DNA of 64,000 nucleotides from a virus. Lineage: Duplodnaviria > Heunggongvirae > Uroviricota > Caudoviricetes. Numbering within the stretch: position 1 is the stretch's first letter; each line of letters opens with the position of its first letter. The stretch is from positions 119,352-183,351 of IMG/VR virus record IMGVR_UViG_3300033146_005641. One strand, given 5' to 3'. A program made the position numbers and the translations under genes. The notes below the pieces were generated by a model. It had not been told where the DNA came from. It worked only from the letters and a program-made list of their open reading frames with translations, and ran no database searches. Shown here in pieces: positions 8,386 to 47,984 of the stretch.

Positions 8386-9193
8386 TGATGATAGTGATAT
8401 TCTCTTAACGTTTTCTTGGGGTAATTTTACACACGGAGTTTCAGGACATCTTTTCGAATGTATAGAATATTATTATATTTTAAAAAATCAATTCAATGTA
8501 AAAATTCTTATTCCCGAGAATATTAAAAACTATAAAGAGACTATAGAATCTAAATATAATTTTGAAAAAGACGAAATAAGAGATATTTTAGAAAATACTA
8601 TTTTTTCAGTAAAACCGGCTTTAGTTAAAACTAATAATATATTTTTTGTGGATGGTTCCTGGAAAAATATTAAGAGATCTAATATATTATATAAGAAAAT
8701 CTTATGTTTCGCTTGTGGAGACCTTAGTATTTTAGAACAGGATGAATCTACGGTTCTATTAGATTATAGAGTATATGACAAAGTTCCTTCTAAATCTTTT
8801 AACTACAAGAAAAAACTATTATTAAAAAAATTAAAGAAACCTGTTAAATCTGAAAATAAAGTATTAATTTATGCTACCGAAAATTGTAGAGATACTGACT
8901 ATGATACAGAAAATTCCTTAAAAGTAAAAAAAGAAGACCTGCCTATTTTAAATATTTTTGAAAAATTTAATAAGTATGTTTATACTCCTGTATCCAGAAA
9001 ATTTGATTGTTCGCCTAGATTCCTAGTTGAGTGTAGATATTTTAATAAAGAAATAGAATTTTATAATATAGATTATTGGAAAGAAGATAGAGGGCTATAT
9101 TATAGATGGAGAGATATAGAAGAAGATTTTGAGTCTCTGATTTTAGAGGAGAATGATGAGATTATAGATATTTTAAAATCTATAATCCAATAA
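8375..9193 (+). CDS. hypothetical protein, paralog of 7582..8385
   Basis: See the previous feature. Tandem paralog pair with overlapping stop and start. Confidence 0.4.
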   Translation: MIINDDSDILLTFSWGNFTHGVSGHLFECIEYYYILKNQFNVKILIPENIKNYKETIESKYNFEKDEIRDILENTIFSVKPALVKTNNIFFVDGSWKNIKRSNILYKKILCFACGDLSILEQDESTVLLDYRVYDKVPSKSFNYKKKLLLKKLKKPVKSENKVLIYATENCRDTDYDTENSLKVKKEDLPILNIFEKFNKYVYTPVSRKFDCSPRFLVECRYFNKEIEFYNIDYWKEDRGLYYRWRDIEEDFESLILEENDEIIDILKSIIQ

Positions 9194-11862: not shown

Positions 11863-11873
11863 AATGGAGAACC

Positions 11874-12875
11874 ATGAACTACAATAAGTTTTCAAAACCT
11901 AACCTAATACTAGATATACAATACAATTTAAGAGCTAAGCTCGATACAGGATTGAGATGTAATTATAATTGTTTCTTTTGTTATTATAAAAATAATCTTA
12001 GAGATCCTGAACTTTCTTTAGAAGAAATTAAAAAAAGAGCACAAATCTTAAAAGAATCAGGAATGAAGGAGGTAGACCTCTCAGGAGGAGAATCTACTAT
12101 TCATTCGAAATGGTTCGAAATTTTAGAATATTGTAATGAGAATTTTGAGAAAGTGTCTTGTCTAAGCAATGGTTCAAAACTAAAATCAAAAGATTTTGCT
12201 AAAAAATCCTTAGAAAAAGGATTAAAAGAGGTATTATTTTCTTTACACGGCTATGATGAAAAATCTCACGATGAGATAGTCGGTCATAAAGGTGCTTTTA
12301 AAAACATCATAAACGCTATCAGAATATGTCAAGAGATTGGTATTGATGTTAGGATTAATTGTACAGTAACCTCTAAAAATATGAAAAATTTAGAAACGTA
12401 TTCTAATCTAATAAAAGATTTAAACCCTTCTCAATTAAACTATCTACCCCTTAATTACTGGGATGATGCTAAAGACTCTAAACCTGAAAAATATGGAGAA
12501 TTATCAACATATATTAAACAATCTATAGATATTTTAGAAAACTCAAATATAGAAATTAATGTAAGATATATTCCTTATTGTTTTATGGAGAGATATGAAA
12601 AATATGTTTGCGATACGTATCAACATATTTTCGATTTAAAAGATTGGAATATTTTAGTCTATGATTTAAAAGAACCTAAAAATTTCACCCTAGAAGAAGC
12701 TTTTAATGAAGCTTTTAATAAAAGAAATTATACTTATTATAAACCAAAAAAATGTTTCGAATGTAAGTTTTTTAAAATTTGTGATGGAGTAGAAAATAAT
12801 ATTAAAGATACTCAGGATGTTTATCCTATAAGAGGAAAGAAAATCGAGAATGTAGTGGAATTTAGAGTTAATTAG
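11874..12875 (+). CDS. radical SAM enzyme, viperin-like
   Basis: CNYNCFFCYY (CxxxCxxC) and LSLEEIKKRAQILKESGMKEVDLSGGEST. Compare viperin CNYKCGFCFH and [29 protein letters not shown] as recalled from memory. Downstream LSNGSKL, SLHGYDEKSHDEI and NCTVTSKN also echo viperin segments. Confidence 0.65.
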   Translation: MNYNKFSKPNLILDIQYNLRAKLDTGLRCNYNCFFCYYKNNLRDPELSLEEIKKRAQILKESGMKEVDLSGGESTIHSKWFEILEYCNENFEKVSCLSNGSKLKSKDFAKKSLEKGLKEVLFSLHGYDEKSHDEIVGHKGAFKNIINAIRICQEIGIDVRINCTVTSKNMKNLETYSNLIKDLNPSQLNYLPLNYWDDAKDSKPEKYGELSTYIKQSIDILENSNIEINVRYIPYCFMERYEKYVCDTYQHIFDLKDWNILVYDLKEPKNFTLEEAFNEAFNKRNYTYYKPKKCFECKFFKICDGVENNIKDTQDVYPIRGKKIENVVEFRVN

Positions 12876-23516: not shown

Positions 23517-23921
23517 ATGAGTATATTAGAAATCATAACACTAGGATATGCTGTAAATGTAGTAGCAATAATTATGGTCTTTTTATTAATCATCATACAG
23601 TCTTTTACTAAAATGAGTTTTTTAAATCATGTAGATAAGATGAAAGTTATTACGTATCAGCAATCTATTTGGAATAAATATTTATCAGCTAAAGAAAGAA
23701 TGAAAACCTTTAAGTTAAATTTTTTAGAGTCTAGAGATTTTAGTTTCTTATTTCCTTTTGCTTATATTTTAGAATTTTTAGTAGTCTTTTGGCACTTTTT
23801 AAAATTTGATTTAGATGTTTTTATTTTTGAAAGAATTAAAAGTAAGACACAAAGAATGGAAGATAAAATAACAAAATATAGTGATAATGAAGAAAAAAAT
23901 GATATTAATAACAGGCTCTAA
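23517..23921 (+). CDS. predicted membrane protein
   Basis: N-terminal hydrophobic segment ILEIITLGYAVNVVAIIMVFLLIIIQSF and a second one around FLFPFAYILEFLVVFW. Confidence 0.4.
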   Translation: MSILEIITLGYAVNVVAIIMVFLLIIIQSFTKMSFLNHVDKMKVITYQQSIWNKYLSAKERMKTFKLNFLESRDFSFLFPFAYILEFLVVFWHFLKFDLDVFIFERIKSKTQRMEDKITKYSDNEEKNDINNRL

Positions 23922-24516
23922 AGGCTTTATAGGAGGAAGATTAATTAAACTTCCTAATTTTATTTCTTATGAAAAATATATCGATAATCCTTCTAATTAT
24001 AAATTGTCTAAAATAGTTCATTTAGCTAGTGTTAGTGAAAGTAGGGAATTCTTAAATTTAAATAAAACCTCCACCGTTATGATAGATTTTACTATAGATA
24101 TAATAAACCTATCTAAGAATCTTGATATAGAGTTAATTTTTTCTTCTTCTATGGCTGTAGAATATTTAGGTGGAGAAAAAGATATTTATGGAGTATATAA
24201 AAAATTTGCCGAATATTACATTAAAAGTAATTTACCTAAATGGAAGATTTTAAGAATTCCTAGAATTTATGGTAAAGACAGAAAGAAAGGATTAATGAGA
24301 ACTTTAAGAGAGGGTACTTTTAAAGGAAATTTATCAGATGAGGTCGAATATGTGGACATAGATGTTTTTATTAATTTCTTTACCGATTATATTAATAACG
24401 GAAGATTAAACGTTATAGAATACGTTCCCGAAAGACTAAAAGAAAAAGATACTGTTTTAAATATTGGAAAAAAATATGAATGTTTACATATTGACTATAA
24501 TAATACTAACTCATAA
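23881..24516 (+). CDS. NAD-dependent epimerase/dehydratase-like protein, short
   Basis: N-terminal Rossmann signature ILITGSKGFIGGRLI (GxxGxxG). Only 211 aa. Confidence 0.5.
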   Translation: MIMKKKMILITGSKGFIGGRLIKLPNFISYEKYIDNPSNYKLSKIVHLASVSESREFLNLNKTSTVMIDFTIDIINLSKNLDIELIFSSSMAVEYLGGEKDIYGVYKKFAEYYIKSNLPKWKILRIPRIYGKDRKKGLMRTLREGTFKGNLSDEVEYVDIDVFINFFTDYINNGRLNVIEYVPERLKEKDTVLNIGKKYECLHIDYNNTNS

Positions 24517-25081
24517 TAGACCGAAAGGTTTTGAAAGACTAATGAACAGTATAAAATCATTCAATCTTTCTAATATTAAAATAATTATTAATTGTGATAA
24601 TGAATTTACATATCTATACGCTAAAAAAATTGTTAAAACATTAAATATAAAATCTACAATTTTTAATCACACAGAAGAAGTAAATGAATTATACAGGATT
24701 ATGTATGAAAAAACTAATACGAAATATGTATGGTTTTTGGAAGATGATGATGAGATTTTATATATTCCTGATATAGAGAAAATGGAAGAAGATCTGATAA
24801 TAGGTTTATATAAACCTATTAGGTTTGACAGATCTCATAAAATAATTAAAGATAACATAAAAATAGATGAAGATAATATTCCCGAATTTTTTCAATTATC
24901 TCAAATAATATTTAAAAGAAATAAACTAGGTTTAGAGGATTTCCCTAAAGAATACAATAATGAAAATGATGAAGTTATTTTAAAATCTATTTTAAAAAAT
25001 TCAAAAAATATTAAAAAAATCTCAAAATCTTTTTTTAAACAAGGAAGCTACGGAGATAATTTATCTCTAGAATATCTTTAA
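24464..25081 (+). CDS. family-2-type glycosyltransferase (GT-A fold)
   Basis: YILTIIILTHNRPKGFERLMNSIKSF resembles the GT2 N-terminus. DxD-type acidic motif FLEDDDEI. Confidence 0.6.
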   Translation: MEKNMNVYILTIIILTHNRPKGFERLMNSIKSFNLSNIKIIINCDNEFTYLYAKKIVKTLNIKSTIFNHTEEVNELYRIMYEKTNTKYVWFLEDDDEILYIPDIEKMEEDLIIGLYKPIRFDRSHKIIKDNIKIDEDNIPEFFQLSQIIFKRNKLGLEDFPKEYNNENDEVILKSILKNSKNIKKISKSFFKQGSYGDNLSLEYL

Positions 25082-25089
25082 GGAAGTCA

Positions 25090-25938
25090 ATGAAAATATC
25101 TCATGTAAACACAATTAAAAATTCTATAAATCTATTTGTAGATATTAATACTATTTGTAATTTAAATTGTCCTTATTGTTTTGCTAGAAAAGAAAAGGAG
25201 TGGAATAAAGAAATAGAAATCGGGAAAGTAAAATTTATTTCTCAATCTTTAAAGTTTAGTAAATATTCTTTCAATATAATTTTATTTGGAGGAGAACCTC
25301 TTCTCCATCCAAAAATTAAAAATATAGTAAATATATTTAATAATAATCCTAAAGTTAATAAAACTATAATATTAACTAATGGCACTTTAAAAGGCGTACC
25401 ATATGATTTAGATTCAGAATATGTATTTACTCTTCATGAATTATCTGAAAAAGAATTCAATAATTTTATGAAGAATATAGCTAAACCTGAGAAGAGTATA
25501 GTTAATTTTGTAATTAAACAAGACAAAACTTCTATTGAGCGATATAGGAAAATATTAAAAATGAAAGATGTTCTCTTAGATATAGAACACTCTCAAATAT
25601 ATGATGATAATATATACATTATAGAAGACTTAAGTCATTTAAATTTCCTAGAACTTCGCAAAGAATTTGTAATTGATAATAAAACCTTTAATTATAGAGA
25701 TTTTTTAAAATTTCATAAGACTTTAAATCCTAAAGAATTTATTTGTGAGATACAAGAGTTAAATATAGATTTAGAAGGAAACATATCTAACGATTGTTCA
25801 GGAATAAGGGATAATATTTACGATAATCCTCTTTTTTTTAAAAAATATGTTAAAGAATATGAATGTTTAAGAAATAGATGTTTAGAATGTACAGGAACTA
25901 TTAGAACTACTAAAATATCAAAGGAACTTAATGAATGA
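25090..25938 (+). CDS. radical SAM enzyme with C-terminal SPASM/twitch-like Cys cluster
   Basis: CNLNCPYCFA (CxxxCxxC), GGEPLL, C-terminal CLRNRCLECTG. Confidence 0.75.
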   Translation: MKISHVNTIKNSINLFVDINTICNLNCPYCFARKEKEWNKEIEIGKVKFISQSLKFSKYSFNIILFGGEPLLHPKIKNIVNIFNNNPKVNKTIILTNGTLKGVPYDLDSEYVFTLHELSEKEFNNFMKNIAKPEKSIVNFVIKQDKTSIERYRKILKMKDVLLDIEHSQIYDDNIYIIEDLSHLNFLELRKEFVIDNKTFNYRDFLKFHKTLNPKEFICEIQELNIDLEGNISNDCSGIRDNIYDNPLFFKKYVKEYECLRNRCLECTGTIRTTKISKELNE

Positions 25939-26962
25939 ATTCAATAAATTAAAAAAGGTTATTATAGGTTCAGAGCTACAAACCTCACTAAACATGTTGG
26001 AAAATAATATATTAAATGAATTAAAATCTTTTAATTATTTTTTTAAATCAGATTTTGATAAAAACGATATTAGAGAACTAATCAATAATATGAATATTAA
26101 GATTAAAGATAGACAAAATTCTATTTCTAACTTCATTAAAACTATAAAAAAAGAAAAAATAGATGTATATAATATAGAAGATTCTGATCTCTACGTTAGT
26201 TCTAATCCTAGAGATATTTTTTCTATTTTAGATGATGTAGTTTTAGTTACTAATTCATTATTAAAATATAGACGAAGAGAATTTGATGTATATATTAAAA
26301 ATTTTCCTGAATTATTCAGGGATAAAAAAATTCTGGATTTAAGAGAAATTTTTAAGAAATATGAAATTTTAGAATACGATTATACTCACTATAATCTTTT
26401 AAGTTTAAATAAATTATCTAAAAACTATGAGAAATATAGACCAAATTTTGAAGCTGCAAATATTTTAAAATGTGGAGATAAAATAATAATGAACGTGAGT
26501 AATAAGAGCGAATATCATGCCTATATTTTGTTAGAAAAATTATTAGGAGTAGAAATAACTCCAATTTTTATAGACTATCATCATATAGACGGAGCTCTTA
26601 ATATTATTAATAATGAAATATGTTTATTATGTTTTGACTCTAATATAGTTTCTAAAAACTCTATTTTAAATCATCTTCCTGAGTTTATAAAAAATATGGA
26701 TATTATTTTTGTAGATAAAAATCCTAAATCTCATGAAAAAATTAAATATAAGGTGTTGGCTAGTATTGGCGGAATGTTTATTAATTCTCTTAGTATTGAT
26801 GAGAATACGGTCATAGTAAATAAAGAGGCATTGTATGTTATAGATGAGTTAGAGAGAAGAGGCATTAAAGTTTTAAAATTAAATTCTAAAAATTCTGAAC
26901 TTTTTGGTGGAGGATTTCATTGTATGAGTGTAGATGTAGAAAGATATAAAGATGGAAAATAG
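25931..26962 (+). CDS. amidinotransferase-fold enzyme (guanidino-group-modifying enzyme superfamily)
   Basis: The C-terminal SELFGGGFHCMSVDVER matches the catalytic-Cys signature GGGFHCxT of L-arginine:glycine and inosamine-phosphate amidinotransferases (recalled: GGGFHCWTCDVRR). HH and acidic motifs upstream (DYHHIDGALN). Confidence 0.65.
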   Translation: MNEFNKLKKVIIGSELQTSLNMLENNILNELKSFNYFFKSDFDKNDIRELINNMNIKIKDRQNSISNFIKTIKKEKIDVYNIEDSDLYVSSNPRDIFSILDDVVLVTNSLLKYRRREFDVYIKNFPELFRDKKILDLREIFKKYEILEYDYTHYNLLSLNKLSKNYEKYRPNFEAANILKCGDKIIMNVSNKSEYHAYILLEKLLGVEITPIFIDYHHIDGALNIINNEICLLCFDSNIVSKNSILNHLPEFIKNMDIIFVDKNPKSHEKIKYKVLASIGGMFINSLSIDENTVIVNKEALYVIDELERRGIKVLKLNSKNSELFGGGFHCMSVDVERYKDGK

Positions 26963-27752
26963 ATTTCAGTTTAATTTTTATATTAATACTATGTGTAATC
27001 AGAAATGTTCCTATTGTTATGCTAGAGCAGGCATGAAATGGAATACTATTTCTCCGTATGAAGAAATAATAAAAAACATCAATCTATTAATAAATAGACC
27101 TAAATGTATAATAAGTTTGATAGGTGGAGAGCCTACGCTTCATCCTAAATTTGAAAATATTTTAAGAAGCATAAAGGATCTTAATCATAACCTTCATATA
27201 TATACTAACGGAACCTCGTCTTTTTTTAATAATTTAAATTATGATTTATATAGAAAGTTCTTATGGACGTTTAGCTATCACGGAAAGTTTACGAATAACG
27301 AGGAGTTTAAGAGAAATATTTTAAAATTTATAAACAATAATATTAATATAGAATTGACGGTTCCAGCACAAAACTTTAATAAGGATATTTTAAGATTTAT
27401 TCAATATAATAAAATAAAGACAGTTATAACTTTTATACACGATAATTCTAAAACTCAATCTAAAGAAAATATAAAAAAATGGGTTTTAGAATTAGAAGAT
27501 GATAATATAAAAAATATGTCTAAATATTTTTATGAAGATGCCTACTATAAAGGATATACTTGTTATTACAATGAGATAGATGTTATAAATTCGAAAATGA
27601 GGACTAATGATTGTAATCATAATTTGAATCTTTTTATAGATGATAAAAATTTAGATTATATATTTTCTCTACCCTTAACGGTATGTAAAAGAGAGAAATG
27701 TAAAAGAGATTGTGCTTTTTTACTACCTAGGAAGCAAAATGATATTTTCTAA
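26952..27752 (+). CDS. radical SAM enzyme with SPASM-like C-terminus
   Basis: CNQKCSYCYA, GGEPTL, C-terminal CKREKCKRDCAF. Confidence 0.75.
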   Translation: MENRFQFNFYINTMCNQKCSYCYARAGMKWNTISPYEEIIKNINLLINRPKCIISLIGGEPTLHPKFENILRSIKDLNHNLHIYTNGTSSFFNNLNYDLYRKFLWTFSYHGKFTNNEEFKRNILKFINNNINIELTVPAQNFNKDILRFIQYNKIKTVITFIHDNSKTQSKENIKKWVLELEDDNIKNMSKYFYEDAYYKGYTCYYNEIDVINSKMRTNDCNHNLNLFIDDKNLDYIFSLPLTVCKREKCKRDCAFLLPRKQNDIF

Positions 27753-28626
27753 TAAAAACTCTATTAAAAATCACGATTTTTTTATTTTTGAATTGTTGAT
27801 CATAGAATTATGTAATTTTAAATGCAGTTATTGTTATATGAGAAATGAATCTCCTACATGGGGTAGCTTTAGTACGAAGAAAGAAATATTTAAAGTGATT
27901 AAAAAGCTAGAAGAATTAAATAATAAAGTCTCAATATGTTTGAGTGGAGGTGAAGCTAGTCTTCATCCTAATTTTTTAGAGTTTGTAGACTATATTACAA
28001 ATAGTGAGAAGATACATAGTCTTCATATTAATACTAATCTACAATTATCTGAAGAAAAAATAGAAAAGATACTAAAAATAGATTCAGACGTAAAATTTCA
28101 TATATCTTTTCATGCAGGACAATCCGATAAAGATTTTAAAATAAAATTAAAGAAAATTCCAAAAAAGAATCAGGAATTAAATATCATGATACACCCAGCA
28201 AAAAAATATAAAAAAGATATAGATGATATTGTGAAATTTTGTGATACTAATAATATATTATATAATATAAAGCCTATATTTATCAATAGTAAATTTAAAC
28301 CATCACAATACGTTATTGAGTCTATGAATTATAAAAACTCTAATAAAGAATATACTGATGGTAATAGAGATTATAATGATTATGATTTGTATAAAGAGGG
28401 TTTATTACCTATGAATACTCTCGGATGGGAGTGTTATTATATATTTTATACTATAGATTGCAAACAGGGAAATATTAAACAGATGTGTAGACTATATGAT
28501 GATTTAAATATTTTTAAAAATTTTGATTTTTTTAATAATTATGATTTATCTAAACCTATAATATGTTCTTTTAAGAATTCTTGTTTATGGGCTAGTTCGT
28601 TAGATCACTATAAGGTAAAAAAATGA
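27739..28626 (+). CDS. radical SAM enzyme
   Basis: CNFKCSYCYM, SGGEASL, C-terminal CSFKNSCLWAS. Start moved to the ATG at 27739 (AGGAAGCAAAATG) from the GTG at 27712 in the ORF track. Confidence 0.7.
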   Translation: MIFSNKNSIKNHDFFIFELLIIELCNFKCSYCYMRNESPTWGSFSTKKEIFKVIKKLEELNNKVSICLSGGEASLHPNFLEFVDYITNSEKIHSLHINTNLQLSEEKIEKILKIDSDVKFHISFHAGQSDKDFKIKLKKIPKKNQELNIMIHPAKKYKKDIDDIVKFCDTNNILYNIKPIFINSKFKPSQYVIESMNYKNSNKEYTDGNRDYNDYDLYKEGLLPMNTLGWECYYIFYTIDCKQGNIKQMCRLYDDLNIFKNFDFFNNYDLSKPIICSFKNSCLWASSLDHYKVKK

Positions 28627-29615
28627 GTCTAAGTGTTGAAAATATATCTCCGTACAGAGAGTATAAACTAATAGATCCTATAAAATCTATGGTTGGGATA
28701 ATGTTACATCCTGTATGTAATATGAAATGTTCTTACTGTTATCAGAAAGATATAATGAGCGTGTCTCAAAAGCAAAAAGATATATATTTAAGCTTTGTAG
28801 AAAAAGCATCAGAGTTTATAAATTTTCTATCTATTAATGGAGAAGACGGAATAGTTGTTTCTATAGAAGGAGGTGAGCCCTTTGTTATGATTGAAGTTTT
28901 AGAAAAGTTTTTAGAAAAATTATCTAATAATAATAAAGATCAAAACACATACCATAAAGAAATAATTATAGTTACTAATATGACTCAATTAGATAGTATG
29001 ATTTATATTTTAGATAAATTTAAAAATTTAAATATAACTCTCAACCCTAGTATTCACTATCATGAAATAGATAAAAAACAATTATATGATACTATTTCTA
29101 ATATATTAAAATTAAAAAAATATATTAAATATGTTAGGGCTATTTTAAAATTAGGCACCGATAGTGTACCTAAAACTCTCAGACCCCTATTAAGAATTCT
29201 AGAAGATAATAATATAGAAGTAGATATAGCCTCTATAATGTTTACTGGTCAAAAAAACGAACTGAATAAGCTATTTAAACTTCCCTCTTTAGAAAAAATG
29301 TCTATAAAAAATCAATTTAAAAATGGTATCTATAATAGTAACGAATTTTTTAATCCTTTAAACACGACTTTAGGTATAAAATGTACATCCTATTGCTGGT
29401 TTATATATTCTAATGGAGATGTAATAATGCACGAATGTAAAAACAGAGGAAAACCGAAAAATATATATACAGACCCTTTCGAAAATATACAAAACATGCC
29501 TAATACAGTAATATGCGGTAGTATGAATTGTGATCAATGTGATTTTTATGATAAATGGGATTCTTGGGAGCAGTGGGGTTGTGAATGGAATCCTAATGAG
29601 GACTATAATAAATGA
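28623..29615 (+). CDS. radical SAM enzyme with SPASM-like C-terminus
   Basis: CNMKCSYCYQ, EGGEPFV, C-terminal CGSMNCDQCDFYD. Confidence 0.75.
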   Translation: MSLSVENISPYREYKLIDPIKSMVGIMLHPVCNMKCSYCYQKDIMSVSQKQKDIYLSFVEKASEFINFLSINGEDGIVVSIEGGEPFVMIEVLEKFLEKLSNNNKDQNTYHKEIIIVTNMTQLDSMIYILDKFKNLNITLNPSIHYHEIDKKQLYDTISNILKLKKYIKYVRAILKLGTDSVPKTLRPLLRILEDNNIEVDIASIMFTGQKNELNKLFKLPSLEKMSIKNQFKNGIYNSNEFFNPLNTTLGIKCTSYCWFIYSNGDVIMHECKNRGKPKNIYTDPFENIQNMPNTVICGSMNCDQCDFYDKWDSWEQWGCEWNPNEDYNK

Positions 29616-30547
29616 TTATAATTTTTCCAATAGAGAACATGCCTAATATAACTTCTCAGTTAGTTGTAGCTATCGAATCTATAATAGACAACTTTAAAAA
29701 TACTAAATACGAGATCATAGTAGTAAATCATAACCACTCTAAACTACCTAAAACTATTTTAAAATATATAGAGTCTAAGAAAGAGGTTAGAATAATACAT
29801 AAAAAATTAACGAATAATAAGTTTTATTATAAGACCGAGAGTCATTTTATGGTAATGCCTGAGGTATTTAATTATGTAGTCGATCATTTTAGAGATGAGA
29901 GTTATTTGTTTTTAGATCCTGATGTGTATGTTAATAAAGACCTACCTCCTATAAATGAAAATGAAACATATGTTTTCAAACAACCTTTAAATTTTGGAGG
30001 CGAGGCTCTAAATTATTGGAATTGTAAAATATTAAATGAAATATATCCTCATCACTATGATACCTTCTTTATATATACTTCTGATAAAGACTTCGCCAAA
30101 AAATGGTTAGGAGAAAGCACTAGAATAGCTAAGATGGGTATTAATCATAAAGATAGAGTAGTAGGAAACAGACTTCAGCATTTTTGCGAAGAGTGTTCTA
30201 TACAAACTCTAATTAATAAAGGATATTCAATAAAAGATGCTAAAGAATTCTTCTTAGCTAATGCATATCTTAACAAAGAAATACAATGGAAAGGGTATAG
30301 TGTTTATCATTATGATTATTCTAAAATCCTAAATATGATGGATATAAATCCTAAATATAAAACTCTATATAGAGTTGTTGGAGGAAGATTAGACGAGGAA
30401 TCTGAAAAGAATTTGACTTTTGATGATAAACTATTAGAATTAGTAAAAAGAGAAATAGATAATTATTTAGAGAAAAATATTAAGCCGTCATTAAAAGAAA
30501 CTCTTTTTATAATGAGATTTGGAAAAGATTATGACTTCTCTGACTAA
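29612..30547 (+). CDS. hypothetical protein, possibly GT-A-like transferase
   Basis: 311 aa. FLDPDVYV acidic motif. No firm family recognised. Confidence 0.35.
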   Translation: MIIIFPIENMPNITSQLVVAIESIIDNFKNTKYEIIVVNHNHSKLPKTILKYIESKKEVRIIHKKLTNNKFYYKTESHFMVMPEVFNYVVDHFRDESYLFLDPDVYVNKDLPPINENETYVFKQPLNFGGEALNYWNCKILNEIYPHHYDTFFIYTSDKDFAKKWLGESTRIAKMGINHKDRVVGNRLQHFCEECSIQTLINKGYSIKDAKEFFLANAYLNKEIQWKGYSVYHYDYSKILNMMDINPKYKTLYRVVGGRLDEESEKNLTFDDKLLELVKREIDNYLEKNIKPSLKETLFIMRFGKDYDFSD

Positions 30548-31244
30548 AAAATCAAAACTAAGAAAAAAAATTATAGAATATAGTATAGAAAATAACCTAG
30601 GACATATTCCTAGTGCATTAAGTATGTTTAATTACTTGTTTTATTTAATCGGAGAGATAGATTTAAGGAAAGCTAATGTAATTATAGGAAAACCTTTCGG
30701 TTCTCAATCTTACTATTTGTTATGGAACTATTTTTATAGTCTAGATATAGATAATTTAAGCTACGGTGTAAAACATGATGAGATATCTTTTATAGATTAT
30801 TCAGAAGAAACTCTAGGAAATGCTTTAGGAGTTGCTGCAGGATATGCTATATCGTCAAATAGAATGACATGGTGTAATATTTCTGATGGAGCTCTTCAAA
30901 TGGGGTCCACCCTAGAAGCTATTCAATTTATAGGAAACAGAAAGTTAAATATTCTACTAACTATAGATTATAATGAAACTCAACTAACAGGAAGGATTGA
31001 AGAAATAATAGGTATGAACGTGAATAATATTTCAGAGTATTTTAAAAGTTTTGGGTGGGATTCTCAAATTATAGATTCTAAAAATATAAGAGAGGGTTTT
31101 TTTAAAAGAATTGCGGAAAACGAAGGTCCTAAAGTAGTTTTTATAAGAACTACGAAGGGTGATGGTATAGAAGAAATGGAGAAGAATCCTAGAGAATGGC
31201 ACTATAAAAAATTAAAGGATATCAATGAGGTTACATTTAAGTAA
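30519..31244 (+). CDS. transketolase N-terminal (TPP-binding) subunit, compact
   Basis: GHIPSALSMFNYLFY (GHxxSxLS) and DGALQMGSTLEAIQFIGNRKLNILLTIDYNETQLTG (GDG...N TPP-binding region). Confidence 0.65.
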   Translation: MEKIMTSLTKKSKLRKKIIEYSIENNLGHIPSALSMFNYLFYLIGEIDLRKANVIIGKPFGSQSYYLLWNYFYSLDIDNLSYGVKHDEISFIDYSEETLGNALGVAAGYAISSNRMTWCNISDGALQMGSTLEAIQFIGNRKLNILLTIDYNETQLTGRIEEIIGMNVNNISEYFKSFGWDSQIIDSKNIREGFFKRIAENEGPKVVFIRTTKGDGIEEMEKNPREWHYKKLKDINEVTFK

Positions 31245-31689
31245 AACTATAGAAAATTGTTATTTTATACACTCTGATATGTGGAACGTAAAAAATTTTC
31301 CTTTTAAAGGTTCTGTAAAGGTTATAAATTGTGGATTAGGAGAAAGTAACTCTCTAAATGTCGCAGGAGGAATAGCTAGAAACAGTAATGATGTTTTTGT
31401 TTATGGTGTAGCAGGGTTTATAATACATAGACTAGAGCAACTAAAATTTAGCTGCAAACATTTTGGAGCTGAAAGAGGAAAAATAATATTAGTAAATGCT
31501 GGGAAAGTAGGATACGAATCTTTCGGTATAGGTCATAGACTAGATGATGATGAAGAAATATGTAATATATTAGGAATAAAATTCTTTGATCCTGAAGATA
31601 TAGATGATTTTGATAATATACTAAAATTTATTAAAAAAGAAAAAAGAGGTATATATTATATAAGATTAGGAAAAGATTATGAAAAATAA
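31225..31689 (+). CDS. transketolase C-terminal (pyrimidine-binding) section, compact
   Basis: Overlaps the N-terminal subunit by 20 nt. GESNSLNVAGGIARNSNDVFVYGVAGFI resembles the transketolase Pyr domain. Only 154 aa. Confidence 0.5.
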   Translation: MRLHLSKTIENCYFIHSDMWNVKNFPFKGSVKVINCGLGESNSLNVAGGIARNSNDVFVYGVAGFIIHRLEQLKFSCKHFGAERGKIILVNAGKVGYESFGIGHRLDDDEEICNILGIKFFDPEDIDDFDNILKFIKKEKRGIYYIRLGKDYEK

Positions 31690-32293
31690 TGATGAATTTT
31701 TAGAAATTTTTGAAAAGAGACTTTCAGAATTTACTGGAGCCCCTTATGTGGTGCTTACTGATAGGTGTACTAATGCTATATTGTTATCTTTAATAGCTAC
31801 AGATGTTAAAGAAGTAAGAATTCCTAATAATACATATTTAAGCGTACCTATGACTTTAATAAACTATGGAATAGATGTTTTTTTTGAAAATTATTATTGG
31901 GAAGAAGAATATTTATTATCGGGTAGTAGAGTGTTTGATTCCGCAGTAGGATTTAAAGAAAATATGTATAATCATCATCAGGACTCCATTCAATGTGTTA
32001 GTTTTCAACAGAAAAAAAGATTAAATATTGGAAGAGGAGGTGCTATATTATTAGATGATTATGAATTGTACTTAAAGCTCCAGAGAATGGTTCACGACGG
32101 AAGAAGAAGAGGAATATCTTCTAAACTTGAAGTAGAGAATTTTCCTGATGATATTATGTTAGGCTATCATATGAATATGATTCCTGATGAGGCTGCTAGA
32201 GGCATATTAATATTAAATCAATTAACAGAATATAAAAAACAATCATATAAAAATTATCCAGATATAAGCAAATTAAAATGCTTTAAGAAATAA
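31679..32293 (+). CDS. DegT/DnrJ/EryC1-like PLP-dependent sugar aminotransferase or dehydratase, compact
   Basis: FEKRLSEFTGAPYVVLTDRCTNAILLSL (compare FEeeFAeylGvkhavavsSGTaALhLAL) and SFQQKKRLNIGRGGAIL (compare SFHatKnittGEGGai, the PLP-Lys region). Only 204 aa versus ~370 typical. Confidence 0.5.
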   Translation: MKNNDEFLEIFEKRLSEFTGAPYVVLTDRCTNAILLSLIATDVKEVRIPNNTYLSVPMTLINYGIDVFFENYYWEEEYLLSGSRVFDSAVGFKENMYNHHQDSIQCVSFQQKKRLNIGRGGAILLDDYELYLKLQRMVHDGRRRGISSKLEVENFPDDIMLGYHMNMIPDEAARGILILNQLTEYKKQSYKNYPDISKLKCFKK

Positions 32294-32334: not shown

Positions 32335-32982
32335 ATGTCTAGAATAATGATAATTGTATCACATATTGATGACGAAATCTTTTCGATGGGTGGAACTATT
32401 CATAAACTTTCAAAAAACAATGAAATTGAAATTCTATTTGTTTGTGAGGGGTCTCCAAAACTTATGTCTATAAAAAATTTTATTAAAAGAAAAAAAGTCA
32501 CTAAAAAATATAAAAAACATAATATAGAATTTTTAAACCTGGAGTACGAAGATACTACTTTAGACATTTTTTCATTATCTGAAATTATAAAAAGAATTCA
32601 ATATGTATATGATGAATTTAGTCCTGACATAGTTTTTACCCACTCTGAAGATATACATCCTGATCATTGTATAGTTTCTAAAGTGGTGTCGATAATCACT
32701 CGTCCTAAAAATAACAGTATCAAGAAACTATATCATTTTTCTATTCCTGGTAATAATGAATGGAACGGATATAGTTTTAAACCTAATACTTATGTTGAGT
32801 TGGGAGAAGATGATATAAAATTCAAACATAAATTTATAAACTATTATAATAATATTTTAGGGTATAAAAATCCACACCCTCTAAGTTCAGAAAAGATAAA
32901 AGCTAAAGATGAATACACGGGAAGTATAATTAATACGGAATATGCAGAAGCGTTTGAATTAAAATTTGATAGGAGCTTATAA
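32335..32982 (+). CDS. LmbE/PIG-L family N-acetylglucosaminyl deacetylase
   Basis: MIIVSHIDDEIFSMGGTIHKL (the [AH]HPDDE zinc motif region) and HPDH later. Confidence 0.65.
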   Translation: MSRIMIIVSHIDDEIFSMGGTIHKLSKNNEIEILFVCEGSPKLMSIKNFIKRKKVTKKYKKHNIEFLNLEYEDTTLDIFSLSEIIKRIQYVYDEFSPDIVFTHSEDIHPDHCIVSKVVSIITRPKNNSIKKLYHFSIPGNNEWNGYSFKPNTYVELGEDDIKFKHKFINYYNNILGYKNPHPLSSEKIKAKDEYTGSIINTEYAEAFELKFDRSL

Positions 32983-33846
32983 TTGAATATATGTATTACT
33001 GGAGGAGAGGGTTTTATAGGTAAGGCTCTCAAAAAACAATTAGAAAAAAATCATAAAGTTTTTACGGTAGATATTAAAGGTGAGCCTAGTATTAGGTTTG
33101 ATTTATCTGAAGATAAAGAGAATTTTTCTACTCATCTTATACATTTATTAAAACACTGCGATGTATTATATCATTTCGCTTCGAGTATCGGCGTAGAATA
33201 TATAGAGAAGGATAAAGATTCCTTTAAAAATTCTATTAAGATAAATGAAAATATACTAGAATTTATTAATCCTGAAGCAAAAATTATCTTTGCTAGTACT
33301 TCAGAGGTTTATGGTTCTGCTTATCACGAGTTTGATGAGAGAGATGATTTAAAGATATTAAGTCCTACTAAAGGAATTAGAGGATCTTATGCAACGCAAA
33401 AAATTCTTGGTGAATTTATGTTTATGAATTCAGGAAATCCATATACTATTGTTAGGTTTTTTAACGTAATTGGAAAAGATCAAAATCCCGATATTGGAAT
33501 GGTATATCCTAGATTCTTAAAAGCTGCTAAGGAGAATAAACCTTTAGAAGTATTCGGAACAGGCAATGAGATGAGATCATATTGTAGTATTAAAGATGCT
33601 GTAAATGTTTTAGAACTTTTATTAAATGAGATGGATAATGAAATTTTAAATATAGGTGCGGAAAATGTCTATAGTACGGCTTCTTTAACTAGAACTATCA
33701 TAGATGTAACTAATAGTTCTTCCGTTATAGTTTATAAAGATTCTAGATGTCAAGAGATTAAATCCAGAAGACCTAAGCTAGATAAAATGTATTCTATATA
33801 TAGGCCTAAATATTCATTAACAGATATTATCAAGGAAGAACATTGA
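32983..33846 (+). CDS. NAD-dependent epimerase/dehydratase (extended SDR), apparent TTG start
   Basis: ICITGGEGFIGKAL Rossmann motif. Catalytic YxxxK as SYATQKILGE. ASTSEVYG resembles the conserved S-x-x-VYG. Confidence 0.7.
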   Translation: MNICITGGEGFIGKALKKQLEKNHKVFTVDIKGEPSIRFDLSEDKENFSTHLIHLLKHCDVLYHFASSIGVEYIEKDKDSFKNSIKINENILEFINPEAKIIFASTSEVYGSAYHEFDERDDLKILSPTKGIRGSYATQKILGEFMFMNSGNPYTIVRFFNVIGKDQNPDIGMVYPRFLKAAKENKPLEVFGTGNEMRSYCSIKDAVNVLELLLNEMDNEILNIGAENVYSTASLTRTIIDVTNSSSVIVYKDSRCQEIKSRRPKLDKMYSIYRPKYSLTDIIKEEH

Positions 33847-34400
33847 AAAAAGTTATAGAAATACATGAGGTGAATTTAGACATTATTAAAAAAATTATTA
33901 AATTAGATTTAAAAAATTGTGTGTTAACGTTTGATGATGGGTTAGCATCCCAATGGCATTTTATAAATGATTTAATAGCTTTAGATGTACCTAAAATATT
34001 TTTTATTAGTACAGATATTATATGTACCAGAATCGATAATCAATCTAAAGAATTTATAACGTGTTCAGAAGCACATAAAAAGGCCTTTAAGGGCAATAAA
34101 GAAAATTATATGACATGGGGTCAAATAAAAACAATATCTAAACTACCTAATTGCTATATTGGAGGACATTCTCATAAACATCAGGCGTACTCTGTAACGC
34201 CTCTAAAAGATTTATACATCAGTCTATCAGACGATTCTGAAAATATGTTAGAGGAGTTTAAAAATAAAAATATTAAAATAGATAAATTTTGTTTTCCCTA
34301 CAATGAAGACTATGACGGAATATATAGAATCCTTTTATCTAAATTAGGTATAGAGAAGTTTTACGGTAAAGGAAGAATTAGTATAGAAGATATAGAATGA
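33843..34400 (+). CDS. polysaccharide deacetylase (NodB-homology) domain protein, apparent TTG start
   Basis: CVLTFDDG motif 1, later GGHSHKH (His-rich metal motif). Confidence 0.55.
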   Translation: MKKVIEIHEVNLDIIKKIIKLDLKNCVLTFDDGLASQWHFINDLIALDVPKIFFISTDIICTRIDNQSKEFITCSEAHKKAFKGNKENYMTWGQIKTISKLPNCYIGGHSHKHQAYSVTPLKDLYISLSDDSENMLEEFKNKNIKIDKFCFPYNEDYDGIYRILLSKLGIEKFYGKGRISIEDIE

Positions 34401-34523: not shown

Positions 34524-35261
34524 ATGATAGGAATTGTAGGATTAGGATATGTAGGAAGTGCCGTTTATTCATCTATTAGAAGTAAAGATGATGTTTTAAT
34601 TTATGACGTAAAAGACGATATTAAAACTCACTCTTTAGTAGAACTAAAAAATAATTGTAAAGCAATTTTTGTATGTGTACCAACACCCTCTAAAGACTCA
34701 GGAGAGATTGAGGATAGTATAGTTTTAAATTTATTAGGAGAATTAAAAGATTATGCTAAGAATAATTTAGTTATTCTAAAGAGTACTATTCTATCGAATA
34801 GAATCCCTCGTATTAGAGGTCTTGTTTATAATCCTGAATTTCTTAACGAAAGAACACATATAGAAGATTTTAGGAATCAGGATTATATAGTTCTAGGAGG
34901 TAATATACAAGATACATCTAGAGCTCAAATGATATATGAGGATTATTTTGAATTAGACGATGTTAAATATGAACACTGTTCTATAGAAGAAGCTAGCTTT
35001 TTAAAATATTTTAATAATATATATGGTGCTTATAAAATATTATTCTGGGAGTTTGTACACGATATTACAAGAGATTCTAGAAAGATTAGTCAAATGATGA
35101 GAAATCTTCCAGAACCTAGAATGGATATTGTAGGTTTAGATGGACAGAGAGGATTCGGAGGAGCATGTTTTCCAAAAGATGTAAAAGCTTTTAATTATGA
35201 TTTTGAACATGTTCTAACTAAGTTTATGTTAGAGTACAACTCAAAAATCTCCTCTATTTAG
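34524..35261 (+). CDS. UDP-glucose/GDP-mannose dehydrogenase-family protein, compact
   Basis: IGIVGLGYVGSAV NAD-binding N-terminus, IFVCVPTPS (ICVPTP motif), and catalytic-Cys signature GGACFPKD (compare GGSCFPKD). 245 aa versus ~400 typical. Confidence 0.65.
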   Translation: MIGIVGLGYVGSAVYSSIRSKDDVLIYDVKDDIKTHSLVELKNNCKAIFVCVPTPSKDSGEIEDSIVLNLLGELKDYAKNNLVILKSTILSNRIPRIRGLVYNPEFLNERTHIEDFRNQDYIVLGGNIQDTSRAQMIYEDYFELDDVKYEHCSIEEASFLKYFNNIYGAYKILFWEFVHDITRDSRKISQMMRNLPEPRMDIVGLDGQRGFGGACFPKDVKAFNYDFEHVLTKFMLEYNSKISSI

Positions 35262-42362: not shown

Positions 42363-43013
42363 ATGGCAGTAAGATTTTCAATAAGAAACGGTCAAGCAAC
42401 ACCTTCAGTAAGCGACTTAGAGCTTTTAGAGCTAGGTGCTGATGTAACAGATGCTAATAACCCTAGAATATATACTAAGACCTCGTCAGGAATTCATCCT
42501 ATTGGTGTAGGAGACGCCCTATCTTTAGGAGAGGTGTTACCTGAAAATTATGCTAGAACAGACATTAATGAGACGTTTGAACAAAATGTAACAGTTAACG
42601 GAACTCTTGATGCTACAGCCGAAAGAGCAAAATATGCCGATATTGCCGAGTACTACGAATGTGATAAAGAATACGAAGCCGGCGATATTTTAATGGTTGG
42701 TGAAGAAACAGAGGCTATTTTAGCTGATGGTTCTAAGATGATTATGGGGGTATGTTCTACAGCTCCTGCATATTTAATGAATACTAAAATTCAAGAAGAT
42801 GAAGAAGTAGAACATTATGCGCCTCTAGCTCTTAAAGGAAGAATTCCGGTTAAAATTACAGGTTCTGCAAAAAGAGGTGATTATATTATCCTAGATGTTA
42901 AAAATCCAGGAAAAGGAAGAGCCGTCAAAACGTATCCTAAAACTGAGGCTGAAAAATTATTTATTGGTGTTTGTGTAACGCCTGGTAAAAAGACTTGTGA
43001 AGTGAGGGTTTAA
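42363..43013 (+). CDS. hypothetical protein
   Basis: 216 aa. Divergently transcribed from the GroES-like gene. Confidence 0.4.
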   Translation: MAVRFSIRNGQATPSVSDLELLELGADVTDANNPRIYTKTSSGIHPIGVGDALSLGEVLPENYARTDINETFEQNVTVNGTLDATAERAKYADIAEYYECDKEYEAGDILMVGEETEAILADGSKMIMGVCSTAPAYLMNTKIQEDEEVEHYAPLALKGRIPVKITGSAKRGDYIILDVKNPGKGRAVKTYPKTEAEKLFIGVCVTPGKKTCEVRV

Positions 43014-43016
43014 AAA

Positions 43017-43472
43017 ATGTTTAAAAAATTGTTTATAGAAGACACAAAAAAGAAAAAAATTAACAGCAAATCTCTTAGTACCATGATGAAAAAATATAAA
43101 TTCTCACATAAAACGGTTACTGTATGGAGAAGAACTAATTTTGGATATACTAATATAGCTATAGCTCTCAATAAAGATGTATGGTTATATTATAGAGGTT
43201 CTAAAAATTCTATATCTATCGAATATAATAGTGAAAAATATTTAGTAGATGAGTCTAAACCTGATTTCAAAATGGCTGAATATCCTCACAGCGTAGGTCA
43301 TACAGAAGGATGGAAAGGTTTTAAAGTATCGCCAAGATCTTCTTTTTGGAGCTCTTTAATGAATTTTATAAACGATATTTTAGAAAATAACATTTCAGGT
43401 CCGCATTATATAGACAATAAGTTACAAAACGGATACGAACAATCGTCTAAATATCCTGATATGAGTTTTTAA
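43017..43472 (+). CDS. protein with MFKKLFIE N-terminal motif
   Basis: 151 aa. Confidence 0.4.
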   Translation: MFKKLFIEDTKKKKINSKSLSTMMKKYKFSHKTVTVWRRTNFGYTNIAIALNKDVWLYYRGSKNSISIEYNSEKYLVDESKPDFKMAEYPHSVGHTEGWKGFKVSPRSSFWSSLMNFINDILENNISGPHYIDNKLQNGYEQSSKYPDMSF

Positions 43473-43518
43473 TATTATATTAATATAATTATTATATAAT
43501 AAAAACAAAAGGAGACAT

Positions 43519-44649: not shown

Positions 44650-44684
44650 GATATCTTCCATAAAGAAGCAAAGGTGGAAATTTA

Positions 44685-45791: not shown

Positions 45792-45795
45792 AAAT

Positions 45796-47982: not shown

Positions 47983-47984
47983 AA

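What the first reader, a model, noticed from the sequence alone, without database searches (positions are those of the whole stretch)
25931..26962. Amidinotransferase-fold enzyme flanked on both sides by radical SAM genes
The C-terminal signature SELFGGGFHCMSVDVER carries the Cys-His catalytic motif of the guanidino-group-modifying superfamily, which includes arginine:glycine and inosamine-phosphate amidinotransferases and arginine deiminase. Such enzymes are very unusual in phage genomes. Within this island it suggests a guanidino or amidino-containing sugar or aminocyclitol, as in streptomycin-type chemistry. Its gene overlaps both the preceding and the following radical SAM gene, suggesting translational coupling and a shared pathway.
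Basis: partly seen in the sequence, partly recalled or inferred. Interest (0 to 1): 0.6.

Follow-up and report, generated by a model that had tools for sequence, protein, structure and literature searches.

The report
Phage amidinotransferase in radical-SAM glycan island
A T4-like phage carries an apparently functional arginine-type amidinotransferase gene inside a large cluster of radical-SAM and sugar-modifying genes; this pairing was already noted in Campylobacter phages in 2010, and its product is still unknown.

Summary
The ORF at 25931-26962 (+, 343 aa) is real. It overlaps radical SAM (rSAM) genes by 8 nt upstream and 11 nt downstream. It belongs to the amidinotransferase branch of the pentein superfamily: AGAT E=1e-9 over 262 residues, and Foldseek places AGAT, SxtG, StrB1 and HsvA (E 1e-15 to 1e-17) ahead of the hydrolases DDAH and ADI. 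The catalytic set is intact: Cys331, His218, Asp95, Asp220 and Glu174, which replaces the AGAT Asp254 (sister orthologues keep Asp).

The gene lies in a tightly packed 15-gene island (23881-35261) with 4 rSAM genes, glycosyltransferases, a split transketolase, a short DegT aminotransferase, deacetylases and SDR/UGDH-like enzymes.

The pairing is not new. CP220/CPt10 Campylobacter phages were reported in 2010 to carry "five rSAM plus a glycine amidinotransferase", and at least 517 IMG/VR stretches encode relatives.

The amidinotransferase behaves as a swappable tailoring gene. It sits before or after rSAM2 in relatives, and one syntenic island replaces it with an unrelated ORF.

Most likely it transfers an amidino group from arginine to an amine on a phage-made sugar. 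The acceptor and the final target are unproven. A streptomycin-type aminocyclitol is not supported.

The parts
25931..26962 (+). Amidinotransferase-family gene (343 aa). Catalytic codons: Asp95 26213-26215, Glu174 26450-26452, His218 26582-26584, Asp220 26588-26590, Cys331 26921-26923. C-terminal motif at nt 26894-26944.
25090..25938 (+). rSAM1 (282 aa, phrog_13987). Its stop overlaps the amidinotransferase start by 8 nt.
26952..27752 (+). rSAM2 (266 aa), SPASM/twitch-like, with C-terminal Cys204/221/245/250/254. Its start overlaps the amidinotransferase stop by 11 nt.
27712..28626 (+). rSAM3 (304 aa, phrog_13987)
28623..29615 (+). rSAM4 (330 aa, phrog_1802)
23881..24516 (+). Short SDR-like protein (211 aa; weak RmlD/epimerase hits). 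Conserved at the end of related islands.
24464..25081 (+). Family-2 glycosyltransferase (205 aa). Conserved between rSAM0 and rSAM1 in relatives.
29612..30547 (+). GT-like protein (311 aa; only a weak GT2 hit). Conserved in L004 and L170.
30519..31689 (+). Split ThDP enzyme: transketolase-N-like (30519-31244) plus a small partner subunit (31225-31689, phrog_23258).
31679..32293 (+). Short DegT/StrS-family sugar aminotransferase (204 aa) with an SFQQKK PLP-lysine-like motif.
32335..32982 (+). PIG-L/LmbE-family de-N-acetylase
32983..33846 (+). NAD-dependent epimerase/dehydratase (SDR)
33843..34400 (+). Polysaccharide deacetylase family protein
34524..35261 (+). Truncated UDP-glucose/GDP-mannose dehydrogenase-like protein. 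It has GxGxxG and the GGACFPKD Cys motif but no C-terminal domain.
11874..12875 (+). rSAM0, a displaced member of the module. Its orthologues (41-51% identity) sit directly upstream of GT2-rSAM1 in L003, L004, L009, L011, L023 and L170.
7582..9193 (+). Two paralogous unknown ORFs (7582-8385 and 8375-9193, phrog_24441). Their orthologues lie just upstream of rSAM0 in L003, L004, L023 and L170, and a match also lies near the CP220 cluster.
42363..48551 (+). Second piece of the module: a tail-fibre-like ORF with an intramolecular-chaperone-type C-terminus (42363-43013), rSAM/SPASM 43519-44649, rSAM 44685-45791, rSAM 46758-47606, and small unknown ORFs. Several of these have counterparts next to the amidinotransferase island in L003, L004 and L023 (L170: rSAM 43519 only).

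Best explanation
The gene encodes an active enzyme of the amidinotransferase branch of the pentein (guanidino-group-modifying) superfamily.

By analogy with AGAT, StrB1, SxtG and HsvA, the inferred mechanism is ping-pong. Cys331 attacks the guanidino carbon of L-arginine, which is held by Asp95 and Asp220. His218, oriented by Glu174, protonates the leaving ornithine. The S-amidino enzyme then passes the amidino group to a primary amine, making a guanidine.

The gene is one tailoring step of a phage-borne, co-transcribed glycan or sugar-modification module. That module is rich in SPASM/twitch-type radical SAM enzymes and also holds glycosyltransferases, a split ThDP enzyme, a short DegT aminotransferase, de-N-acetylases and SDR/UGDH-like oxidoreductases.

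The most likely acceptor is an amino group on a (nucleotide-)sugar intermediate, either installed by the aminotransferase or exposed by a deacetylase. The product would be a guanidino sugar that the GT2 enzymes attach to a still unknown target: the host envelope, a virion fibre, or less likely DNA.

Shown here: family, fold, catalytic residues and conserved neighbourhood. Inferred: the arginine donor, the sugar acceptor and the target.
For: Family and fold:
- phmmer against PDB hits only amidinotransferases below E=1e-3: AGAT 1.2e-9 over residues 77-338, HsvA and SxtG 1.4e-8, StrB1 2.9e-5.
- The AF2 model (pLDDT 85, pTM 0.85) matches AGAT, SxtG, StrB1 and HsvA at Foldseek E 5e-17 to 3e-15. DDAH and ADI match at 2e-11 or weaker.

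Catalytic residues:
- AGAT D170, H303, D305 and C407 align with D95, H218, D220 and C331. These are invariant in 15 and 23 homologues.
- AGAT D254 aligns with E174. The closest orthologues P0002-5 also have Glu, while P0006, P0007 and all distant homologues have Asp.

Operon: 15 + strand ORFs with overlaps or gaps of 123 nt or less.

Conserved neighbourhood, in 31 dereplicated loci:
- rSAM genes lie within 8 kb in 24, short DegT in 17, UGDH-like in 15.
- Densities fall with distance from the gene: rSAM 0.27 to 0.10 per kb, DegT 0.113 to 0.018, UGDH-like 0.161 to 0.018.
- L011 and L023 repeat rSAMs, AT, DegT, epimerase, PIG-L, deacetylase.
- CP220 has 4 rSAM, AT, rSAM, 2 GT.
- rSAM2 orthologues ride the same contigs as the amidinotransferase orthologues.
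Against: - No biochemical data exist for any phage member. The papers found only annotate the gene.
- The amidinotransferase and DegT are separable: L009 has the amidinotransferase but no DegT in its 10 kb flank, and L170 has DegT but no amidinotransferase.
- No sugar nucleotidyltransferase, priming transferase, flippase or polymerase was found in the island.
- The rSAM fold neighbours include peptide maturases (SuiB, SkfB, anSME) as well as sugar or cyclitol enzymes (BlsE, SpeY), so a sugar substrate is not established.
- Glu in the triad is what the hydrolases ADI and DDAH use (own knowledge).
Confidence: 0.55

Rival explanations
1. It amidinates a small non-sugar amine, such as glycine, lysine, ornithine or a polyamine (as AGAT, AmtA and HsvA do). 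Its product is used independently of the neighbouring sugar genes, for example amidinated polyamines or a guanidino metabolite that benefits infection.
For: The best sequence matches are AGAT and HsvA, a polyamine amidinotransferase. The gene is mobile within the island and is dispensable in L170. Seven of 31 clusters have no rSAM within 8 kb. The cyanophage S-SCSM2R has a second GATM-like protein elsewhere in its genome, and that protein was detected in virion preparations (PMC12801897).
Against: The gene is translationally coupled to rSAM genes on both sides. DegT-like, UGDH-like and rSAM genes are enriched at close range across lineages. In its own clade the gene is always embedded in the same island.
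Confidence: 0.15
2. It modifies a protein or peptide together with the SPASM-type rSAM enzymes. One example would be converting Lys or Orn side chains of a virion fibre-like protein to homoarginine or arginine, in a RiPP-like or protein-maturation module.
For: The rSAM2 model is closest to the peptide maturases SuiB, SkfB and anSME. A tail-fibre-like ORF with an intramolecular-chaperone domain is part of the contiguous module in L003, L004 and L170, and lies next to rSAMs in the window at 42363-47606.
Against: No precursor-peptide-like small ORF was seen in the island. No characterised amidinotransferase acts on proteins (own knowledge). The island is dominated by sugar-type enzymes: GT2, DegT, PIG-L, SDR, UGDH-like.
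Confidence: 0.1
3. It is a hydrolase (a deiminase or DDAH-like enzyme) rather than a transferase, removing or converting a guanidino or amidino group.
For: The triad acid is Glu174, as in ADI and DDAH (own knowledge). Pfam and NCBIfam name only ADI/arcA for the C-terminal 54 residues. One JGI homologue is auto-named DDAH.
Against: Full-length sequence and fold matches favour amidinotransferases by 5-6 orders of magnitude. Sister orthologues P0006 and P0007 and all distant relatives have Asp at this position.
Confidence: 0.08
4. The island hypermodifies phage DNA, and the amidinotransferase guanidinylates an amine-bearing base or a DNA-linked sugar.
For: Related Campylobacter phages have heavily modified DNA. 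T4-like phages often glycosylate DNA (own knowledge). The island sits next to replication genes.
Against: CP220 DNA is reported as 100% dG replaced by dADG through 7-deazaguanine/DpdA3 genes, with no sugar or guanidino adduct reported (PMC10516641). No hydroxymethylase, DpdA or base-kinase gene was found among the window ORFs scanned.
Confidence: 0.07
5. It makes a streptomycin-type guanidino-aminocyclitol antibiotic, as the first reader and the S-SCSM2R paper suggest.
For: The DegT/StsC-type aminotransferase plus amidinotransferase logic mirrors streptidine synthesis. Twitch rSAM dehydrogenases (BtrN, SpeY) occur in aminocyclitol pathways (own knowledge).
Against: The island has no inositol-phosphate or 2-deoxy-scyllo-inosose synthase, kinase, phosphatase or exporter. 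StrB1 is the weakest solved amidinotransferase match. Actinomycete loci lack the rSAM and short-DegT context.
Confidence: 0.05

Closest known systems
L-arginine:glycine amidinotransferase (AGAT/GATM; PDB 1jdw) and bacterial relatives SxtG (6u1r), HsvA (5wpi), StrB1 (1bwd)
   Same: Same pentein fold (Foldseek E 5e-17 to 3e-15, TM 0.6-0.69). Same C-terminal GGxFHC nucleophile motif, His, and two guanidino-binding Asp residues. Similar length to StrB1.
   Different: Only 18-19% structure-based identity. The triad Asp254 is replaced by Glu174. There is no Arg at the AGAT R322 position, but HsvA and SxtG lack it too. The gene is phage-encoded and embedded among rSAM and sugar genes. The substrate is unknown.
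CP220/CPt10 (Firehammervirus) 'five radical SAM + putative glycine amidinotransferase' interchangeable cluster (Timms et al. 2010, PMC2853527)
   Same: T4-like myovirus background (terminase 41% identical). Many rSAM genes. The amidinotransferase sits directly before an rSAM gene and near nucleotide-diphospho-sugar transferases. Same PHROG family. Function unknown in both.
   Different: Only 26% identity. CP220 has Asp in the triad. The window island additionally carries a split transketolase, DegT, PIG-L, deacetylase, epimerase and a UGDH-like gene. The module is split into several pieces in the window.
Cyanophage sugar islands with 'inosamine amidinotransferase' (e.g. S-SCSM2R ORF305-309; PMC12801897) and many IMG/VR marine contigs
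   Same: Amidinotransferase homologue next to a short DegT/AHBA-synthase-like aminotransferase, an rSAM and glycosyltransferases.
   Different: About 24-26% identity. These islands have one or a few rSAMs rather than four or more, use 2OG-Fe(II) oxygenases, and keep the NPxR Arg equivalent to AGAT R322.
Arginine deiminase / DDAH hydrolases of the same superfamily
   Same: Same fold and a Cys-His-Glu type triad.
   Different: Much weaker sequence and fold similarity. No sequence-level hit beyond the last 54 residues.

Membership tests
Amidinotransferase branch of the pentein / guanidino-group-modifying superfamily | Five-fold beta-beta-alpha-beta propeller (pentein) fold | tested here: met
   AF2 model with pLDDT 85 and pTM 0.85. 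Foldseek top 7 hits are all amidinotransferases, E 5e-17 to 3e-15.
Amidinotransferase branch of the pentein / guanidino-group-modifying superfamily | Nucleophilic Cys in the C-terminal GGxFHC motif (AGAT Cys407) | tested here: met
   Cys331 aligns with C407 and is invariant in 15 and 23 homologues.
Amidinotransferase branch of the pentein / guanidino-group-modifying superfamily | Catalytic His (AGAT His303) and its acidic partner (AGAT Asp254) | tested here: met
   His218 is invariant. The partner is Glu174 here and in P0002-5, and Asp in P0006, P0007, CP220 and the cyanophage clade. This is a conservative substitution.
Amidinotransferase branch of the pentein / guanidino-group-modifying superfamily | Two Asp residues that bind the guanidinium group (AGAT Asp170, Asp305) | tested here: met
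   Asp95 (PRD) and Asp220 (HID) align and are invariant.
Amidinotransferase branch of the pentein / guanidino-group-modifying superfamily | Closer to transferases than to ADI/DDAH/agmatine deiminase hydrolases | tested here: met
   phmmer against PDB finds only amidinotransferases at E<1e-3. Foldseek gives transferases at 3e-15 or better and hydrolases at 2e-11 or weaker.
Amidinotransferase branch of the pentein / guanidino-group-modifying superfamily | Arginine-dependent transamidination through an S-amidino-Cys intermediate | not testable with these tools
   Requires an enzyme assay.
Streptomycin-type inosamine-phosphate amidinotransferase pathway | Cyclitol-forming enzyme (inositol-1-phosphate or 2-deoxy-scyllo-inosose synthase) plus a cyclitol kinase or phosphatase in the cluster | tested here: not met
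   Pfam scans of all 15 island ORFs show none.
Streptomycin-type inosamine-phosphate amidinotransferase pathway | StsC/DegT-family aminotransferase partner | tested here: met
   Short DegT at 31679-32293, Pfam E=6.8e-16. Weak PDB hits include 2-deoxy-scyllo-inosose aminotransferases, but sugar aminotransferases score better.
Streptomycin-type inosamine-phosphate amidinotransferase pathway | Closest relative is StrB1 | tested here: not met
   StrB1 E=2.9e-5 against AGAT 1.2e-9. The Foldseek scores are similar for all amidinotransferases.
Phage rSAM-amidinotransferase cassette (CP220/CPt10 type; phrog_25854 + phrog_13987) | Amidinotransferase homologue clustered with several rSAM genes and sugar transferases in a T4-like myovirus | tested here: met
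   Window. CP220. PHROG E=2e-33. Terminase 41% identical to CP220. Literature.
ADI/DDAH hydrolases | Full-length profile match to ADI/DDAH families | tested here: not met
   Pfam ADI and NCBIfam arcA match only residues 285-338. The NCBIfam score is far below its cutoff (19.9 against 489 bits).

The most novel reading that the evidence does not exclude
The amidinotransferase is a swappable tailoring step of a phage super-module that spans about 20 kb or more and carries at least 8 radical SAM genes. In relatives this module is contiguous and includes a tail-fibre-like protein. Using oxygen-independent radical chemistry and a ThDP two-carbon transfer, the module builds a previously undescribed guanidino-bearing, branched or higher-carbon sugar. 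That sugar decorates the virion fibre or remodels the infected cell surface, which would be a new class of phage-made glycan.
Probability: 0.25. Interest if true: 0.75.

Novelty: new member of a known kind. Interest (0 to 1): 0.45.

Why it matters
Guanidino groups on sugars are rare outside aminoglycoside-type antibiotics. A phage pathway that installs one, alongside four to eight radical SAM enzymes, would point to unexplored glycan chemistry used in phage-host recognition, superinfection exclusion or virion shielding.

The module is widespread: Campylobacter phages, marine cyanophage-like contigs and uncultured T4-like phages all carry it. It is hypervariable and has had no assigned function since 2010.

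Natural variants with and without the amidinotransferase (window versus L170) offer a ready-made comparison. The expected mass difference is +42.022 Da.

Tried and rejected
- DNA-level identification failed. There was no megablast hit in INPHARED. The exact-protein contig look-up found nothing for the window protein or for the identical P0001.
- I considered reading donor specificity from the missing AGAT-R322 equivalent. I rejected this because HsvA and SxtG, which both use arginine, also lack it.
- The rSAM genes could not be assigned to a subfamily. NCBIfam gave only sub-threshold N-terminal core matches. phmmer against PDB was weak. The rSAM2 fold search placed it in the SPASM/twitch class but did not separate peptide from sugar substrates.
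- The 199-aa ORF that replaces the amidinotransferase in L170, and several unknown ORFs in L009, L003 and CP220, gave no Pfam or PDB match.
- The two GT-like ORFs gave no informative PDB match.
- The promoter scan was uninformative in this AT-rich DNA: 100 sites found against 95.5 expected.
- The afdb50 fold library was unavailable.
- Literature searches found no functional study of phage amidinotransferases or of these rSAM clusters.
Full report
**Observation.** The quoted motif SELFGGGFHCMSVDVER is residues 322-338, nt 26894-26944. The flanking ORFs 25090..25938 and 26952..27752 are radical SAM (rSAM) proteins, with Pfam E=5.3e-10 and 1.3e-12. They overlap the gene by 8 nt (ATGAATGA) and 11 nt. 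An AAAGGA element lies 5 nt upstream of the start.

**Family and fold.** Pfam alone is marginal. ADI PF02274 matches only residues 285-338, at 23.0 bits against a cutoff of 22.8. Stronger evidence comes from three other searches.
- phmmer against all PDB sequences returns only amidinotransferases below E=1e-3: human AGAT at 1.2e-9 over residues 77-338, HsvA and SxtG at 1.4e-8, and StrB1 at 2.9e-5.
- An AlphaFold2 model built on 23 homologues is confident, with pLDDT 85 and pTM 0.85. Foldseek ranks AGAT, SxtG, StrB1 and HsvA first, at E 5e-17 to 3e-15 and TM 0.6-0.69. The hydrolases DDAH and ADI follow at 2e-11 or weaker.
- The protein matches PHROG phrog_25854 (function unknown) at 2e-33 over its full length.

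**Catalytic residues.** In the AGAT alignment, AGAT Asp170, His303, Asp305 and Cys407 correspond to Asp95, His218, Asp220 and Cys331. All four are invariant in alignments of 15 and 23 homologues.
- The triad acid, AGAT Asp254, is Glu174 here and in the four closest orthologues. It is Asp in P0006, P0007, CP220 and the cyanophage clade. This is a conservative swap, and ADI and DDAH naturally use Glu at this position (own knowledge).
- The AGAT Arg322 equivalent is absent. It is also absent in HsvA and SxtG, which use arginine, so the absence says nothing about the donor.

**Genome context.** The window comes from an uncultured T4-like myovirus.
- It encodes a T4-type terminase, a gp32-like SSB, a clamp, helicases, topoisomerase II and an RnlA-like ligase.
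- The terminase is 41-43% identical to those of Vibrio phage phiKT1024 and the Campylobacter Eucampyvirinae.
- There is no nucleotide-level match in INPHARED. An identical protein sits on a 183 kb JGI contig.

**The island.** The gene lies in a run of 15 + strand ORFs from 23881 to 35261. Neighbouring ORFs overlap or are separated by at most 123 nt. In order they are:
- a short SDR;
- GT2;
- rSAM1;
- the amidinotransferase;
- rSAM2, rSAM3 and rSAM4;
- a GT-like ORF;
- a split transketolase-like ThDP enzyme;
- a 204-aa DegT-family aminotransferase;
- a PIG-L de-N-acetylase;
- an SDR epimerase/dehydratase;
- a polysaccharide deacetylase;
- a truncated UGDH-like dehydrogenase that keeps the Rossmann motif and the catalytic Cys motif.

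The island is more AT-rich (25.7% GC; the gene itself 22.6%) than the window as a whole (28.4%). No cyclitol synthase, kinase, sugar nucleotidyltransferase, priming transferase or flippase was detected.

**Is the association conserved?** Yes.
- Campylobacter phage CP220 has four rSAMs, a hypothetical gene, the amidinotransferase, another rSAM and two sugar transferases.
- Metagenomic relatives at 38-46% identity sit in the same rSAM-rich context.
- I clustered 89 fetched loci at 80% identity into 31 groups. Of these, 24 have rSAM genes within 8 kb, 17 have the short DegT, 15 the UGDH-like gene, and 6 a second amidinotransferase.
- Gene density falls with distance from the amidinotransferase. 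Between under 1 kb and 7.5-10 kb, rSAM drops from 0.27 to 0.10 per kb, DegT from 0.113 to 0.018, and UGDH-like from 0.161 to 0.018.
- L011 and L023 reproduce rSAMs, amidinotransferase, DegT, epimerase, PIG-L and deacetylase in that order.
- These 80 viral loci are the best of 517, so the sample is biased towards closer relatives.

**A larger, rearranged module.** tblastn synteny shows a conserved core order in relatives: rSAM0, GT2, rSAM1, then the amidinotransferase and rSAM2 in either order, rSAM3, and further on TK-N, TK-C and SDR.
- The amidinotransferase precedes rSAM2 in the window and L004, and follows it in L003 and L009.
- In L170 the island is otherwise syntenic, but an unrelated, unannotatable 199-aa ORF occupies the slot. 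The gene therefore behaves as a mobile, optional tailoring step.
- The window's rSAM0 orthologue (11874-12875) lies apart from the main island. So do two paralogous unknown ORFs (7582-9193), and so does a block at 42363-48551 holding a tail-fibre-like ORF, three more rSAMs and small ORFs. In L003, L004, L023 and L170 their counterparts lie next to the amidinotransferase island.

**Radical SAM partners.** rSAM2 orthologues (up to 56% identity) travel on the same contigs as the amidinotransferase orthologues. The family has the CX3CX2C motif plus five conserved C-terminal cysteines. Its model (pLDDT 87) falls in the SPASM/twitch class. Its nearest structures are SuiB, SkfB, anSME, viperin, SpeY and BlsE. 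That set spans peptide maturases and sugar or cyclitol enzymes, so it does not fix the substrate.

**Distribution.**
- The family is rare in isolates: 15 of 50,697 INPHARED records, mostly Campylobacter phages, and 3 BFVD clusters.
- The window's own clade is tiny, with 6 representatives at E of 1e-30 or better among 1.84 billion.
- At least 517 IMG/VR stretches and 516 cellular stretches encode more distant relatives.
- No cellular genome has a close homologue. The best are 22-27% identical, in DPANN archaeal MAGs (which keep the amidinotransferase-DegT pairing), actinomycetes and cyanobacteria.

**Literature.** Timms et al. 2010 already described the CP220/CPt10 cluster as an interchangeable module of unknown function, with [quoted passage not shown] (PMC2853527). 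A 2025 cyanophage paper labels the homologous genes "antibiotic synthesis genes" from annotation only (PMC12801897). CP220 DNA is fully substituted with dADG through 7-deazaguanine genes, with no sugar or guanidino adduct reported (PMC10516641). I found no functional study.

**Interpretation.** With high confidence, about 0.9, this is a catalytically competent amidinotransferase-family enzyme.
- The mechanism is inferred from AGAT. Cys331 takes the amidino group from arginine, and His218 with Glu174 acts as acid/base. Asp95 and Asp220 hold the guanidinium, and the amidino group then passes to an amine.
- The acceptor I favour is an amino group on a sugar intermediate of the island, giving a guanidino sugar that the GT2 enzymes transfer to an unknown target. 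That reading has moderate confidence.
- Overall confidence in the statement is 0.55. The amidinotransferase and DegT are separable, and the target is unknown.

**Rivals.**
- a small-molecule amine acceptor (0.15);
- protein or fibre modification (0.10);
- hydrolase activity (0.08);
- DNA hypermodification (0.07);
- a streptomycin-type aminocyclitol (0.05).

**Verdict.** This is a divergent new member of an already noticed but uncharacterised phage gene kind. Interest is moderate at 0.45. It is not a surprise to phage genomicists, but it is a well-defined lead to possibly new glycan chemistry, and natural variants with and without the gene are available for comparison.

Noticed in passing
window 11874-12875, 25090-29615, 43519-47606: At least eight radical SAM genes lie in 64 kb. 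One has a Pfam SPASM domain (43519-44649). This is the same unusual genotype reported for CP220-like Campylobacter phages.
   Followed up: partly
window 7582-9193, 10855-12875, 42363-48551 vs L003, L004, L023, L170: Genes scattered over four places in the window lie close together in related contigs. The amidinotransferase island is therefore part of a larger rSAM-rich module that has been split by rearrangement, or assembled from pieces in the relatives.
   Followed up: partly
L170:9397-9996 (NCBI JBINNZ010004795.1): In an otherwise syntenic island, an unrelated 199-aa ORF with no Pfam or PDB match occupies the amidinotransferase slot between rSAM1 and rSAM2. It may be an alternative tailoring enzyme.
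   Followed up: partly
window 42363-43013; L003:3100-3885; L004:2984-3304; L170:995-1972: A tail-fibre-like protein with a Peptidase_S74/G2-type intramolecular chaperone domain recurs right next to rSAM genes in these modules. It could be a target or a partner of the pathway.
   Followed up: partly
window 10176-10802, 50291-50980, 51034-51912, 51962-53029, 62498-63391: Five paralogous ORFs belong to one unknown phage family (phrog_7816/phrog_21719). One of them gives weak, sub-threshold leucine-rich-repeat hits.
   Followed up: no
window 31679-32293 and 34524-35261: Miniaturised enzymes: a 204-aa DegT-family aminotransferase (normal length about 370 aa) and a 245-aa UGDH-like protein that lacks the C-terminal domain. 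Both are conserved next to amidinotransferase homologues in many viral contigs.
   Followed up: partly
window 9180-10061 (-) and 10855-11862 (+): A PolyA-polymerase/CCA-adding head-domain protein, and an RlaP-like (RNA-repair-type) nucleotidyltransferase directly upstream of rSAM0.
   Followed up: no
L090-L100 (Woesearchaeota/Nanoarchaeia/Pacearchaeota MAG contigs): The nearest cellular relatives sit in DPANN archaeal MAGs and keep the pairing of amidinotransferase with short DegT. These may be viral contigs binned into MAGs, or a real archaeal glycan pathway.
   Followed up: no
L003:18508-19764; L003:20860-20963; L009:13928-14260: A flavin-dependent Trp-halogenase-like gene is inserted between the two transketolase subunits in L003. 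Tad6 (L003) and Tad2-like (L009) anti-defence genes lie near the islands.
   Followed up: no
window 22900-35400 (e.g. 26546-26562, 27949-27967, 28414-28435): Seven terminator-like hairpins were found against 1.6 +/- 1.2 expected from shuffles. All lie inside ORFs, including a palindrome within the amidinotransferase gene. Their significance is unknown.
   Followed up: no
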